Part shown: positions 56,517 to 60,468 of the stretch, piece after piece
How positions within the stretch are numbered: the first letter of the stretch is position 1
Layout: every line of letters starts with the position of its first letter
Position numbers and translations under genes: made by a program
Assembly: GCF_000026545.1 (NCBI RefSeq)
Contig: NC_011601.1
Source of the DNA: Escherichia coli O127:H6 str. E2348/69
Lineage (GTDB): Bacteria; Pseudomonadota; Gammaproteobacteria; Enterobacterales; Enterobacteriaceae
Direction: 5' to 3' (one strand)
Length of the DNA: 64,000 nt
Notes under the pieces: model-generated
The model's input: only the letters and a program-made list of their open reading frames with translations
What the model was told of the DNA's origin: nothing
Database searches by the model: none

Positions 56517-58460
56517 TTACTTACTCAGATCCACCTGATAAATCGCAAACCCGATATCATCGGTCGCGACTTTATTCATCGGATACTGCCCTTTTTCTTT
56601 AATAAACGCTGCGGCTTTATCTGACGGAGAGGTTTCGAAACGGATATCCAGTTTCTTATCGCCAGCTATCGGTGCTAAACGCCAGTTGTTATCTGCAGCC
56701 GGGTGAATTTCCCCCGCACGTTTCGACTCATCAGCAATCCACGCTGCCAGCACCGAGCGGTTCTCATCCGGTGAAGCAAAAGCGATATGGCTGTCGCCCG
56801 TACCGGCAAATTTGCCGCCGTAAGCGCGATAGTTATTGGTGGCAACGAGGAACATGGCGTTCGGATCAATCGGCTTGCCGTTAAAGGTCAGGTTCTTAAT
56901 CCTTTCCGCATTGGCATTAATCATCTGGCACTCGCCGTCATAACGGGCGGGCTGGGTAACATCAATCTGATAATTCACACCATCAATAACATCAAAGTTA
57001 TAGGTGCGGAAACCATCCCAGTTGATGAGTGACTGTGGTTTCGTGCTGTTAGGATCAATCTGGTTAAACTGTCCGGCGGAGCACTCCAGCCACTCTTTCA
57101 CCTCTTTACCGCTGGCTTTCACCACAATCAGCGTATTGGGGTAGAGATAAAGATCGGCGGCATTACGGAAGGTCAACTGGCCTTTTTCCACCTCCACATA
57201 GCTTGCCGGGTCATTTTTGCGACCACCAACTTTAAACGGTGCGGCAGCTGAAAGCACTGGCAGTTTTGCCAGATCCGGATCGCCCTGAATGTAATGCTCG
57301 ACATACGCTTTTTGCGCGTTGTTCACCACCTGCACGGTCGGATCGTCCTGCACAAGCGCCAGATAGCTATACATATTGTCGGCAGATTTACCGATTGGCT
57401 TGCTGACGAACTGGCGTGTGGCATCGTGATCGGCTTTGAGTGTTTCTACCAGCTTGCTGTCTTCCGCCGCGAGGGATTTTTTATTAGCGATGTCGTAAAT
57501 CGGCCGTGCTTCCGCTTTCGCCTGCGTCACCTGCCATTTACCGCTGTCATTACTGAGTTGTAAGTCGACCACACCAAGATGATCGCCCCACATGCCTGGC
57601 ATTACCGCCGGAACACCATTCAGCGTGCCTTTCGCGATATCAGCCCCTTCGATATCAGCAAAATCTTTACCTGGGAAAACGGCGTGAGCATGGCCAAACA
57701 TAATGGCGTTAACGCCCGGAATTTCACTGAGGTAATAAACTGAGTTTTCCGCCATCACTTTATACGGATCGGCAGACAGCCCGGAATGCGCCAGAACGAC
57801 AACGACATCGGCACCTTTCTCGCGCATTTCAGGCACGTATTTGCGTACGGTTTCGGTAATATCATTCACCGTCACTTTCCCGGATAAATTAGCTTTATCC
57901 CAGCCCATGATTTGTGGCGGGACGACGCCAATATAGCCAATCTTCAGCGTCTGTTTTTTTCCGTCTGTATCGACCACTTCGGTGTCTTTAATTAAATACG
58001 GTGTAAACATTGGCTGTTTGGTTCTGGCGTCAATGACGTTGGCATTTACATAAGGGAATTTCGCTCCCGCCAGCGCATTTTTCAGATAATCCAGACCGTA
58101 GTTAAACTCGTGGTTGCCAAGCGTGCCGACGGTATAGTCCAGCGTATTTAATGCCTTATAGACCGGGTGAATATCACCTGCTTTTAATCCTTTCGCCGAC
58201 ATGTAATCTGCCAGCGGACTCCCCTGAATCAAATCGCCGTTATCGACCAGTAGGCTGTTTTTCACTTCATTGCGGGCATCGTTAATCAGGCTTGCCGTAC
58301 GTACCAGTCCGAATTTTTCCGTGGCGGTGTCTTTGTAATAATCGAAATCCATCATGTTGCTATGCAGATCAGTGGTTTCCATGATACGCAGATCGACCGT
58401 CGCTGCATTCACACTGGCGGCAATCAGCGTGGCCAGGAGCGTTGCGCTAAACTTAATCAT
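56517..58460 (-). CDS. cpdB: 2',3'-cyclic-nucleotide 2'-phosphodiesterase/3'-nucleotidase (periplasmic)
   Basis: ORF 56517..58469; signal peptide [19 protein letters not shown]; calcineurin-like phosphoesterase and 5'-nucleotidase C domains. Confidence 0.93.
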
Positions 58461-58649
58461 CAGGGACATCCTTTTATCATCGGGAATACGAAAGAAAAGG
58501 GAGAATAAACGTCTTACTTATAGAACAGTGAAGAATGCCACAATTTTACGCTTTGAAAATGATGACACTATCACAGTTGGCGCATTCATTAACGATAGGG
58601 TATAAGTAAAACAATAAGTTAACACCGCTCACAGAGACGAGGTGGAGAA

Positions 58650-59390
58650 ATGTTAGATCAAGTATGCCAGCTTGCACGGAATGCAGGCGATGCCATTATG
58701 CAGGTCTACGACGGGACGAAACCGATGGACGTCGTCAGCAAAGCGGACAATTCTCCGGTAACGGCAGCGGATATTGCCGCACATACCGTTATCATGGACG
58801 GTTTACGTACGCTGACACCGGATATTCCGGTCCTTTCTGAAGAAGATCCTCCCGGTTGGGAAGTCCGTCAGCACTGGCAGCGTTACTGGCTGGTAGACCC
58901 GCTGGATGGTACTAAAGAGTTTATTAAACGTAATGGCGAATTCACCGTTAACATTGCGCTCATCGACCACGGCAAACCGATTTTAGGTGTGGTGTATGCG
59001 CCGGTAATGAACGTAATGTACAGCGCGGCAGAAGGCAAAGCCTGGAAAGAAGAGTGCGGTGTGCGCAAGCAGATTCAGGTCCGCGATGCGCGCCCGCCGC
59101 TGGTGGTGATCAGCCGTTCCCATGCAGATGCGGAGCTGAAAGAGTATCTGCAACAGCTTGGCGAACATCAGACCACGTCCATCGGCTCTTCGCTGAAATT
59201 CTGCCTGGTGGCGGAAGGACAGGCGCAGCTGTACCCGCGTTTCGGGCCAACCAATATTTGGGATACCGCCGCTGGTCATGCTGTGGCTGCAGCTGCCGGA
59301 GCGCACGTTCACGACTGGCAGGGTAAACCGCTGGATTACACTCCGCGCGAGTCGTTCCTGAATCCGGGGTTCAGAGTGTCTATTTATTAA
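58650..59390 (+). CDS. cysQ: 3'(2'),5'-bisphosphate nucleotidase CysQ
   Basis: 246-aa inositol-monophosphatase-fold ORF (WLVDPLDGT motif). Confidence 0.94.
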
Positions 59391-59937
59391 TTAATTTATG
59401 CAGCAGGTCCATCACTTGCTGCACCTCTTCCTGAGTAAGCGCCCCGTCTTTGGCCCATTGCACGCGACCGTCTTTATCCAGCACCACTACAGCAGAACTT
59501 TTTTCATCCAGCTGCCAGGCACCGCGTGCGACGCCATTGCTATCAACAATAAACTGCGACCAGGGATAAAGCTTTTTATTACTCTCCAGACTGCTGCGCA
59601 CAAACATCCCTGAACCCGGAATCGCGTCGTCGGTGTTAACAATGGTAGTGGTCTGGTAACGATCGTGCGGTAACTTCGCTGATTTAATCGCTTCAATCAG
59701 CGTCGCGTTTTTCTCTTTTGCAGAGGTGCGACCAGCAATATGTTGCAGTACTCGCACTTTTCCCACTAACTGCGCACTGTTCCAGGTTTTGTAGCTAAAC
59801 TGATCTTTATCAAGCACCAACTCGCCACGATCGGTGATGCCAATCGGCGGCACTCGCTGACCGGTTTCGAACTGATGTGCGGAAGCCATCATCGGCAACA
59901 GCAGGCAGGTGAGTGCCAGAATCTTGCGTAGGGTCAT
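59380..59937 (-). CDS. ytfJ: Periplasmic protein YtfJ (DUF1107)
   Basis: 185-aa ORF with signal peptide [20 protein letters not shown]; 3' end overlaps cysQ 3' end by 11 nt. Confidence 0.85.
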
Positions 59938-60261
59938 GGTGTTTCCTTCTTATGATATGCAGGTGATCCGACCACTTGGGTCTGAGTTTTAATCATATGT
60001 GCTATTTATCGAATTTCCCGCAAGTGTGATGCCAGTTTGCGGTCAAGCGCACAAATCATATGAAAAATGAATGCTTATACTGAAGACCGCGCTTCGGTAA
60101 AAAGATAATTCTGAATAATTGTAACCTTTAGGTAAAAAAAGTTATACGCGGTGGAAACATTGCCCGGATAGTCTATAGTCACTAGGCATTAAAATTTGCG
60201 CCTCATAATCGTTGGGCCGATTGTGGCACCGCAAAGGCGTAATACTCAGCAGGAGATAACA

Positions 60262-60468
60262 ATGAAAATTTTCCAACGGTACAACCCACTTCAGGTGGCG
60301 AAGTACGTAAAGATCCTGTTCCGTGGACGGTTATACATCAAGGACGTTGGCGCTTTTGAATTTGATAAGGGTAAGATTCTTATCCCAAAAGTGAAGGATA
60401 AGCTGCATTTGTCAGTGATGTCCGAAGTTAACCGTCAGGTTATGCGTCTGCAAACAGAGATGGCTTAA
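60262..60468 (+). CDS. ytfK: Small protein YtfK (DUF1107)
   Basis: ORF 60196..60468; start at [20 protein letters not shown] (68 aa). Confidence 0.85.

What the first reader, a model, noticed from the sequence alone, without database searches (positions are those of the whole stretch)
59380..59390. cysQ and ytfJ overlap tail-to-tail by 11 nt; no ytfI-like gene between them
The cysQ stop (TAA 59388-59390) and the minus-strand ytfJ stop (complement of 59380-59382) overlap, so the 3' ends of the two mRNAs are complementary and could form antisense duplexes. From memory, K-12 has an extra gene (ytfI) between cysQ and ytfJ, implying an indel difference at this junction; that relies on recollection.
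Basis: partly seen in the sequence, partly recalled or inferred. Interest (0 to 1): 0.3.

Follow-up and report, generated by a model that had tools for sequence, protein, structure and literature searches.

The report
Conserved cysQ–ytfJ tail overlap, no ytfI
Two ordinary E. coli genes that face each other really do share their last 11 bases; this is the old, usual arrangement in enteric bacteria, lab strain K-12 is the exception because it picked up an extra foreign gene (ytfI) there, and the only new detail is a conserved RNA hairpin for cysQ hidden in the last codons of ytfJ.

Summary
cysQ (+, 58650-59390) and ytfJ (-, 59380-59937) overlap tail-to-tail by 11 nt. RefSeq annotates the same overlap in E2348/69, which is 100% identical to the window here.

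The recollection about K-12 is also correct. MG1655 carries a 1,228-bp AT-rich ytfI segment at this junction, and that insertion is already published (PMC4720273).

The ytfI-less state is both the majority and the ancestral one:
- About 70% of 5,426 complete E. coli genomes lack the ytfI segment.
- 74 of 80 other Enterobacteriaceae species show a direct overlap of 11, 7 or 4 nt.

Convergent overlaps are common (75 pairs in E. coli), so the finding itself is ordinary and already known.

One detail appears undescribed. A 9-10-bp stem-loop (59399-59423) lies 8 nt after the cysQ stop and is built from ytfJ codons V172-H180.
- Its synonymous sites are nearly invariant across 75 distinct sequences, with one compensatory pair.
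- It is absent where ytfJ does not abut cysQ.
- It is replaced or duplicated next to cysQ in all five independent insertion lineages.
- It has no U-tract and is followed by a C-rich, G-poor stretch.

I read it as cysQ's 3'-end protective or terminator hairpin (inferred; no RNA data for a ytfI-less strain). Regulation by antisense pairing remains untested.

The parts
58650..59390 (+). cysQ coding sequence (3'(2'),5'-bisphosphate nucleotidase, 246 aa), stop TAA at 59388-59390
   Evidence: ORF list. NCBIfam NF008182 E 9e-159 and Pfam Inositol_P. Same coordinates in the RefSeq annotation of E2348/69. The C-terminus PGFRVSIY* is conserved in 80 species.
59380..59937 (-). ytfJ coding sequence (periplasmic YtfJ_HI0045 family protein, 185 aa), stop TAG = reverse complement of 59380-59382
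   Evidence: ORF list. TIGR01626 E 5.5e-92 and PF09695 E 1.5e-77. RefSeq annotation. The K-12 promoter is reported as sigma-E/sigma-S bound (PMC4447067).
59380..59390 (.). 11-nt tail-to-tail overlap (CTATTTATTAA) shared by the last codons and stops of cysQ and ytfJ
   Evidence: An overlap of 11, 7 or 4 nt is present in 74 of 80 other Enterobacteriaceae species loci. A more distant syntenic locus has a 39-nt overlap (L086).
59391..59398 (.). 8-nt spacer (TTAATTTA) between the cysQ stop and the stem-loop. In K-12 this position is occupied by the 1,228-bp ytfI segment
   Evidence: Base-by-base comparison with MG1655. The ytfI segment is present in 1,623 of 5,426 complete E. coli genomes. The spacer is identical in four sampled ytfI-less E. 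coli genomes and variable between genera.
59399..59423 (+). Conserved stem-loop UGCAGCAGG(U)-CCAUC-(A)CUUGCUGCA. It is encoded by ytfJ codons V172 Q173 Q174 V175 M176 D177 L178 L179 H180. It is a palindrome, so it can fold in either transcript
   Evidence: Fold prediction gives a 10-bp stem, with z -2.1 and -2.35 for the two segments tested. RNAalifold finds a consensus helix. The 9 core pairs are each kept in 71-75 of 75 distinct sequences, and one pair shows GC 66 / AU 5 / GU 4. Its two arms are the lowest synonymous-entropy triplets of ytfJ outside the overlapped tail. No Rfam match.
59424..59503 (+). C-rich, G-poor tract (29 C, 14 G) directly after the stem-loop on the cysQ-sense strand. 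This is a rut-like composition, antisense to ytfJ codons
   Evidence: window; median C/G is 1.87 against 1.02 for the rest of antisense ytfJ, and it is higher in all 74 overlap lineages.

Best explanation
cysQ and ytfJ are two unrelated housekeeping genes that converge and share their last 11 bases. This overlap is the ancestral arrangement in Enterobacteriaceae. K-12 and about 30% of E. coli genomes differ because a 1.2-kb AT-rich foreign segment carrying ytfI was inserted at the junction.

With no intergenic space, the RNA element that defines the 3' end of the cysQ transcript is written into the coding sequence of ytfJ. The codons GTG CAG CAR ... CTG CTG CAY (V172-H180) form a 9-10-bp G+C-rich stem-loop starting 8 nt after the cysQ stop (59399-59423). 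It has no U-tract and is followed by a C-rich, G-poor stretch.

The most likely mechanism (inferred, not shown):
- RNA polymerase reads cysQ through into antisense ytfJ.
- Rho terminates it on the C-rich tract.
- Exonucleases trim the RNA back to the hairpin, which protects it.

This would give cysQ a 3' UTR of about 35 nt that is fully complementary to the end of the ytfJ ORF. ytfJ RNA must extend at least 11 nt into cysQ, and how it ends is not known.

Shown here: the overlap, its antiquity, the insertion in K-12, and selection on the hairpin. Inferred: that the hairpin serves cysQ, and the Rho/trimming route.
For: Overlap and annotation.

The ytfI indel:
- Comparison with K-12.
- The ytfI segment is in 1,623 of 5,426 E. 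coli genomes.
- It is published as a K-12-specific, H-NS-bound insertion absent from SE11 and SE15 (PMC4720273).

Ancestry of the overlap:
- 74 of 80 species loci overlap.
- A locus with only 50% YtfJ identity and the same synteny overlaps by 39 nt and keeps the hairpin.

Selection on the hairpin:
- The stem is kept in all but two of 75 distinct sequences, apart from the loop-closing pair, which is unpaired in four. One pair is compensated (GC to AU) in non-coli Escherichia.
- The Leu codons in the stem are CTG in 76/81 and 80/81 sequences, while other conserved Leu codons of the gene are CTG in only 16-58 of about 80. Gln167 (alignment numbering) is CAG in 80/80.

Link to cysQ:
- The hairpin is absent at the equivalent position in 5 ytfJ loci not adjacent to cysQ. 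It is also absent in one syntenic locus that has a 52-nt spacer with its own intergenic hairpin.
- In all 5 independent insertion lineages a strong stem-loop starts 2-12 nt after the cysQ stop. In C. youngae this is a 42-bp direct repeat that duplicates the ytfJ hairpin next to cysQ.
- Where such a non-coding copy exists, the coding copy is weakened. The only mid-stem mismatches in the whole set are in Kluyvera L059 and L062.
- In K-12, the published primary 3' terminus of cysQ is at 4437541 (PMC10687069 supplement). That is 1 nt after the last paired base (4437540) of the insert-borne hairpin.

Fit to the Rho-dependent class:
- No U-tract.
- C/G is 2.07 in the next 80 nt of the window, and the skew is conserved in 74 of 74 lineages.
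- This matches the published description of Rho-dependent 3' ends: stable stem-loops not followed by U-rich sequence, with rut sites immediately downstream (PMC6061677 abstract).
Against: - No RNA 3'-end data for a ytfI-less strain could be read here. The EPEC, Salmonella and Klebsiella sheets of PMC10687069 are cut off in the stored supplement.
- The element is a palindrome and folds in the ytfJ sense too. The RNAalifold consensus energy stands out more on the ytfJ-sense strand (z -4.9) than on the cysQ-sense strand (z -2.3).
- The strand asymmetry of wobble pairs rests on only 3 informative independent events, which is suggestive at best.
- The C-rich tract could be a by-product of the conserved YtfJ protein sequence.
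- The single-sequence folding z-scores in the window are modest (-2.1 and -2.35).
- The association with cysQ adjacency is a correlation across few independent lineages. Only 6 loci lack the overlap and lie outside Enterobacteriaceae.
- The hairpin is still intact in K-12, where cysQ has another hairpin, although that insertion may be too recent for decay.
Confidence: 0.6

Rival explanations
1. The stem-loop is a bidirectional, collision-type terminator or pause site serving both convergent genes. Polymerases from cysQ and from ytfJ would pause at the hairpin and terminate by head-on collision, independently of Rho.
For: The palindrome folds in both transcripts. The genes are convergent and lack canonical terminators. 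Published work describes hundreds of E. coli bidirectional terminators between convergent genes. These do not resemble intrinsic terminators, do not depend on Rho, and use a stem-loop to position the collisions (bioRxiv 10.1101/2022.10.23.513370).
Against: For ytfJ the hairpin ends 16 nt before the first base of its own stop codon. A ytfJ transcript ending at the hairpin would therefore lack a stop codon. Wobble intermediates pair only in the cysQ sense. In every insertion lineage the hairpin stays with, or is recreated next to, cysQ.
Confidence: 0.2
2. The overlap works as a cis-antisense regulatory coupling. Complementary 3' ends of cysQ and sigma-E-driven ytfJ mRNAs would pair and be cleaved, or convergent transcription would interfere, so that envelope stress lowers CysQ. 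This is not exclusive of the other explanations.
For: At least 11 nt of complementarity is unavoidable, and it is probably 44 nt or more. The overlap has been kept for the whole family. The ytfJ promoter is reported as sigma-E and sigma-S bound, and the cpdB/cysQ intergenic region as sigma-S bound (PMC4447067).
Against: No expression data were obtained. At least 5 lineages tolerate separation of the two genes by 71-2,120 nt, and about 30% of E. coli genomes carry ytfI between them. The overlap length varies (4, 7, 11, 39 nt), so it is not tuned. No functional link between PAP hydrolysis and YtfJ is known.
Confidence: 0.12
3. The conserved palindrome acts on ytfJ itself, for example through mRNA stability or translational pausing near the C-terminus. 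Alternatively it acts at the DNA level as a binding site for a dimeric protein, with no role for cysQ.
For: It lies inside the ytfJ ORF. The ytfJ-sense consensus fold has the stronger z-score. A 10-bp inverted repeat with a 7-bp spacer looks like an operator.
Against: It is absent from ytfJ homologues not adjacent to cysQ. It is duplicated or replaced on the cysQ side after insertions, and the coding copy decays in the two Kluyvera species. G.U intermediates would be A.C mismatches in the ytfJ sense, and wobble pairing is irrelevant to double-stranded DNA recognition.
Confidence: 0.06
4. The window lineage lost ytfI by deletion, rather than K-12 gaining it.
For: ytfI also occurs in a divergent Escherichia lineage whose flanks are 89% identical to K-12 (L006), so the insertion is old. 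The E. coli empty-site spacer differs at 4 of 13 positions from sister Escherichia species.
Against: 74 of 80 outgroup species have the direct overlap and none has ytfI. A deletion would have had to recreate both reading-frame ends exactly. The spacer is variable in all genera, and strain E69 is an intermediate. The ytfI allele carries the older TGAGCAACTT junction type. The insert is AT-rich and H-NS bound, typical of acquired DNA (PMC4720273).
Confidence: 0.05

Closest known systems
E. coli K-12 MG1655 cysQ-ytfI-ytfJ locus (b4214-b4216)
   Same: The flanking genes and order are the same (cpdB, cysQ, ytfJ, ytfK, paeA), at 98.2% nucleotide identity over the shared 1.8 kb. The hairpin in the ytfJ codons is the same.
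   Different: K-12 has 1,228 bp (34.7% GC) with ytfI in place of window 59391-59398. As a result cysQ and ytfJ do not overlap there. Each has its own insert-borne stem-loop, and YtfJ ends ...QKLLK (184 aa) instead of ...HKLINK (185 aa).
Protective 3' stem-loops of Rho-dependent transcripts (Dar and Sorek 2018, PMC6061677)
   Same: A stable stem-loop with no U-tract, followed immediately by a C-rich, G-poor stretch. In K-12 the mapped cysQ 3' end sits 1 nt after such a hairpin.
   Different: Here the stem-loop lies inside the coding sequence of the opposing gene, so it is also constrained as protein. Rho dependence and the RNA end were not measured for this arrangement.
Bidirectional terminators between convergent E. 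coli genes (Ju et al. 2019, as described in bioRxiv 10.1101/2022.10.23.513370)
   Same: A stem-loop at the meeting point of convergent genes that does not look like an intrinsic terminator.
   Different: Those elements lie between gene boundaries. This one lies upstream of the ytfJ stop, so it cannot be a productive end for ytfJ.
Convergent overlapping gene pairs in bacteria (75 in the E. coli reference genome, PMC4161906)
   Same: A short tail-to-tail overlap created by stop-codon position, conserved between species.
   Different: Nothing unusual. At 11 nt, this is an ordinary member of the class.

Membership tests
Convergent (tail-to-tail) overlapping gene pair | Both ORFs are genuine protein-coding genes | tested here: met
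   CysQ matches NF008182 at E 9e-159. YtfJ matches TIGR01626 at E 5.5e-92 and PF09695 at E 1.5e-77. Both are conserved in 80 species.
Convergent (tail-to-tail) overlapping gene pair | The stop codon of each gene lies inside the other gene's reading frame on the opposite strand | tested here: met
   The cysQ stop is at 59388-59390 and the ytfJ stop at 59380-82, an 11-nt overlap.
Intrinsic (Rho-independent) terminator | G+C-rich stem-loop just after the gene | tested here: met
   A 9-10-bp stem at 59399-59423, 8 nt after the cysQ stop.
Intrinsic (Rho-independent) terminator | A run of U directly after the stem | tested here: not met
   The tail is CCUCUUCCUG. The terminator scan found nothing here. 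The tails are likewise not U-rich in 82 aligned sequences.
Rho-dependent 3' end with protective stem-loop (PMC6061677) | Stable stem-loop not followed by U-rich sequence | tested here: met
Rho-dependent 3' end with protective stem-loop (PMC6061677) | C-rich, G-poor (rut-like) sequence immediately downstream | tested here: met
   C/G is 2.07 in 59424-59503. The median is 1.87 against 1.02, and the skew is seen in 74 of 74 lineages. This is composition only.
Rho-dependent 3' end with protective stem-loop (PMC6061677) | Steady-state RNA 3' end immediately after the stem. Read-through when Rho is inhibited. Shortening blocked by the stem in exonuclease assays | not testable with these tools
   Only K-12 data were readable: the cysQ 3' end at 4437541 lies 1 nt after the insert-borne hairpin. 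The EPEC, Salmonella and Klebsiella sheets are cut off.
Bidirectional collision-type terminator of convergent genes | Stem-loop located between the two gene boundaries and giving usable 3' ends for both genes | tested here: not met
   The stem lies inside the ytfJ ORF, and the first base of the ytfJ stop codon is 16 nt downstream of it in the ytfJ sense. No conserved counterpart exists in the cysQ codons.
Cis-antisense regulation through overlapping 3' ends | Complementary transcripts exist | tested here: met
   This follows from the two stop-codon positions, which give at least 11 nt of complementarity.
Cis-antisense regulation through overlapping 3' ends | Duplex formation or interference changes the expression of one partner | not testable with these tools
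   No expression or RNase III data are available here.
ytfI-carrying allele of the junction | A ytfI-like ORF or its AT-rich segment lies between cysQ and ytfJ | tested here: not met
   The window has 8 nt where K-12 has 1,228 bp. tblastn with YtfI gives no hit in ytfI-less loci.

The most novel reading that the evidence does not exclude
The family-wide retention of the overlap together with the embedded hairpin is not just economy of space. It would be a regulatory device that ties CysQ (removal of toxic PAP, sulfur assimilation) to the envelope-stress gene ytfJ. When sigma-E fires ytfJ, convergent polymerases or the antisense RNA would disrupt the formation of the cysQ 3' hairpin and destabilise cysQ mRNA. 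Lineages that inserted cargo at the junction, including K-12, would have uncoupled the two genes.
Probability: 0.08. Interest if true: 0.5.

Novelty: already known. Interest (0 to 1): 0.2.

Why it matters
As reported, the finding matters little. The overlap is in the public annotation, and the ytfI insertion in K-12 is published.

Two modest points are useful.
- K-12 is the atypical strain at this locus. Transcript maps, terminator lists and H-NS maps from K-12 do not describe the arrangement found in about 70% of E. coli genomes or in most enteric genera.
- The locus is a clean natural example of one DNA stretch doing two jobs: protein codons for ytfJ and a 3'-end RNA hairpin for cysQ. It comes with built-in evolutionary controls, namely five independent insertions that each left or recreated a hairpin beside cysQ.

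This is relevant to people who recode genes or interpret synonymous-site conservation. It also offers an easy test case for how convergent genes without an intergenic region terminate.

Tried and rejected
- **Canonical terminator scan** of 58400-60300. Nothing was found at the junction. The one nearby hit (59358-59374, + strand) lies inside cysQ before its stop, and the total count was at chance level (4 found against 2.0 +/- 1.4 expected).
- **Rfam** with permissive thresholds. Only noise, with E above 3.
- **A mirror-image element**, that is, a ytfJ terminator hidden in the cysQ codons. There is no consistent hairpin and no unusual synonymous constraint in the last 30 cysQ codons. How ytfJ RNA ends remains open.
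- **Function of YtfI.** No Pfam, NCBIfam or PDB-sequence match. The only hits were marginal: PADLOC Cas6b (E 8e-4 over 41 residues) and PHROG 3250 (E 2e-3). I treat these as noise. I ran no further search on a gene that is absent from the window.
- **The idea that the derived E. coli spacer (TAATTAATTT) is a scar of ytfI excision.** Dropped, because this spacer varies in every genus and strain E69 is an intermediate.
- **ytfI as a transposon-like unit.** It has short inverted ends, and the overlap segment is duplicated at the right junction, matching 14/16 to the ancestral sequence. This was noted but not resolved. The segment is single-copy and always sits at this locus.
- **Direct experimental 3' ends for EPEC E2348/69, Salmonella and Klebsiella** in the PMC10687069 supplement. 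The stored file is truncated and only the K-12 row was readable.

Full report
**Observation.** The window around the finding is E. coli. It is 100% identical over 1.8 kb to EPEC strain E2348/69.
- cysQ occupies 58650-59390 on the + strand and ends ...TCT ATT TAT TAA.
- ytfJ occupies 59380-59937 on the - strand. Its stop TAG is the complement of CTA at 59380-59382.
- Both are well-supported genes. CysQ matches NF008182 at E 9e-159, and YtfJ matches TIGR01626 at E 5.5e-92.
- RefSeq annotates the same overlap in E2348/69.

**The K-12 comparison.** MG1655 has ytfI (b4215, 312 aa) between cysQ and ytfJ.
- Base-by-base comparison shows that homology stops right after the cysQ stop and resumes at TGCAGCAGG.
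- Window 59391-59398 (8 nt) therefore corresponds to 1,228 bp in K-12.
- The K-12 segment is 34.7% GC against 50.8% in the flanks.
- This segment is found in 1,623 of 5,426 complete E. coli genomes, including K-12 derivatives, O157:H7, O55:H7 and some ETEC. About 70% lack it, like the window.
- The indel is already in the literature. Higashi et al. 2016 show ytfI as a K-12-specific, H-NS-bound insertion between cysQ and ytfJ, absent from strains SE11 and SE15 (PMC4720273).

**Which state is ancestral.** I fetched the ytfJ locus from one genome each of 80 other species: Escherichia, Citrobacter, Salmonella, Klebsiella, Raoultella, Enterobacter, Kosakonia, Kluyvera and others.
- In 74 of them cysQ and ytfJ overlap directly, by 11 nt (41 loci), 7 nt (27) or 4 nt (6).
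- A more distant locus, with 50% YtfJ identity and the same msrA-ytfL-ytfK-ytfJ/cysQ-cpdB order, overlaps by 39 nt.
- No outgroup carries ytfI.
- The overlap is therefore ancestral and ytfI is an insertion.
- Overlap as such is unremarkable. 75 convergent overlapping pairs are reported for the E. coli reference genome (PMC4161906).

**A recurrent insertion point.** Six of the 80 loci have something between the genes, representing five independent events when K-12 is included:
- ytfI, in K-12 and in a divergent Escherichia lineage (L006). Between these two, the flanks are 89% identical, the insert is 77% identical, and YtfI is 67% identical.
- A pentapeptide-repeat protein in E. albertii.
- A radical-SAM/SPASM gene plus a membrane protein in C. 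youngae.
- A Peptidase_S11 carboxypeptidase in two Kluyvera species.
- A 71-nt spacer in K. intermedia.

**The stem-loop.** With no intergenic DNA, I asked where the transcripts could end. No canonical terminator is present.
- Folding shows a 10-bp stem at 59399-59423, 8 nt after the cysQ stop.
- RNAalifold recovers it as the consensus helix across 74 aligned junctions.
- The family consensus is GTGCAGCAGG-N7-CCTGCTGCAC. In the ytfJ frame this reads Val-Gln-Gln ... Leu-Leu-His, corresponding to V172-H180 in the window protein.
- On an 82-sequence alignment (75 distinct sequences), seven of the nine core pairs are paired in 74-75 of 75.
- The pair at columns 11-21 is always paired but varies: GC 66, AU 5, GU 4. 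The AU state, in non-coli Escherichia, is a two-sided compensatory change.
- The loop-closing pair is unpaired in four sequences.
- The two arms are the lowest-entropy codon triplets of ytfJ apart from the overlapped tail. The stem Leu codons are CTG in 76/81 and 80/81 sequences, while other conserved Leu codons of the gene are CTG in 16-58 of about 80. One stem Gln is CAG in 80/80.
- Codon bias and shared ancestry cannot explain this, because neighbouring synonymous sites have turned over freely.
- Rfam has no matching family.

**Whom the hairpin serves.** Four lines of evidence point to cysQ.
1. It is absent at the equivalent position in five ytfJ homologues that are not next to cysQ. It is also absent in one syntenic locus where a 52-nt spacer carries its own intergenic hairpin.
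2. In every insertion lineage a strong stem-loop begins 2-12 nt after the cysQ stop.
   - In C. youngae a 42-bp direct repeat flanks the insert, so an exact copy of the ytfJ hairpin stays beside cysQ.
   - The Kluyvera and K. intermedia hairpins have the same CAGCAG...CTGCTG core and look like diverged duplicates.
   - The ytfI and E. albertii inserts bring unrelated hairpins.
3. Where a non-coding copy exists, the coding copy is weakened. It has G.U pairs in C. youngae and K. intermedia, and the only mid-stem mismatches of the whole data set occur in the two Kluyvera species.
4. In K-12 the published primary 3' terminus of cysQ is at 4437541 (PMC10687069 supplement). That is 1 nt after the last paired base of the insert-borne hairpin at 4437498-4437540. 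In the one strain with data, cysQ RNA therefore ends at the first hairpin after its stop.

**Likely mechanism.**
- None of these hairpins is followed by a U-tract.
- In the window the next 80 nt on the cysQ-sense strand have 29 C and 14 G.
- This skew is present in all 74 overlap lineages, with a median C/G of 1.87 against 1.02 for the rest of antisense ytfJ.
- I therefore favour Rho termination in antisense ytfJ followed by trimming back to the hairpin.
- The main alternative is the collision-type bidirectional terminator described for convergent E. coli genes (bioRxiv 10.1101/2022.10.23.513370). Against it, the hairpin precedes the ytfJ stop and so cannot give a usable ytfJ end.
- I found no mirror-image element for ytfJ in the cysQ codons. 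How ytfJ RNA ends is unexplained.

**Caveats.**
- The hairpin is a palindrome, and its consensus fold scores at least as well in the ytfJ sense.
- The wobble asymmetry favouring the cysQ sense rests on three independent events.
- The C-rich tract may simply reflect the conserved protein.
- No 3'-end data for a ytfI-less strain were readable here, because the relevant supplement sheets are truncated.
Several lineages tolerate separation of the genes.

**Verdict.** The embedded, conserved cysQ 3' hairpin is a small, apparently undescribed addition of a known kind.

Noticed in passing
window 59391-59398; loci L001, L006, L008, L045, L059, L062, L068, L095: The cysQ/ytfJ junction is a recurrent insertion point, with five independent events carrying unrelated cargo. 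These are ytfI, a pentapeptide-repeat protein, a radical-SAM/SPASM gene plus a membrane protein with a Cys/Gly/Ser-rich tail, a Peptidase_S11 carboxypeptidase, and a 71-nt hairpin spacer. The cysQ C-terminus is always preserved, while the YtfJ tail changes.
   Followed up: partly
L045 (Citrobacter youngae ATCC 29220), flanks of the 2,120-bp insert: A 42-bp direct repeat (AGCAATTTGTGCAGCAGGGCAATCACCTGCTG[C/T]ACC[G/T]CTTCC, 40/42 identical) brackets the insert. It duplicates the ytfJ 3' end, including the hairpin. The mechanism, whether a long target duplication or an element-borne copy of the gene end, is unknown.
   Followed up: partly
L001 5497-5510 and 6690-6700; L006 insert ends: The ytfI segment has short inverted ends that differ between alleles but remain inverted: TAAATTCAG...CAGAATTTA in K-12 and TTAATTCCATA...TATGGAATTAA in L006. 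The K-12 right junction ATTATTTGAGCAACTT matches the ancestral overlap sequence ATTTATTGAGCAACTT at 14/16, which suggests the overlap segment was duplicated at insertion. In AT-rich sequence this could be chance.
   Followed up: partly
window 59388-59400 compared with L003, L004, L007: The E. coli ytfI-less junction (TAATTAATTTATG) is identical in four sampled E. coli genomes. It differs at 4 of 13 positions from E. whittamii and Escherichia sp. E1V33 (TGAGCAACTTATG), and strain E69 is intermediate. The ytfI allele carries the TGAGCAACTT type, so it did not arise on today's E. coli empty allele.
   Followed up: partly
L001 5708-6646 (K-12 ytfI; absent from the window): YtfI (312 aa) has no Pfam, NCBIfam or PDB-sequence match, only marginal PADLOC (Cas6b, E 8e-4) and PHROG hits. 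It diverges about twice as fast as its flanks (77% against 89% nucleotide identity, K-12 versus L006).
   Followed up: partly
L095 (NZ_CP144926.1, 'E. coli' SCPM-O-B-7615) and L006 (SCPM-O-B-8794): Two genomes labelled E. coli match this locus at only about 89% identity. One carries the E. albertii-type pentapeptide-repeat insert. They are probably other Escherichia species or clades filed as E. coli.
   Followed up: no
window 59358-59374 (+): A 7-bp hairpin, CTGAATCCGGGGTTCAG, lies inside the last cysQ codons and uses the rare Arg codon AGA. Other genera have a different small hairpin (CCCGG-CTT-CCGGG) at the same place, but many lineages break it and there is no synonymous constraint.
   Followed up: yes
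protein P0004: A 391-aa database protein joins a membrane-transporter-like N-terminus to a full YtfJ domain. This is probably a gene-calling or frameshift artefact rather than a real fusion.
   Followed up: no
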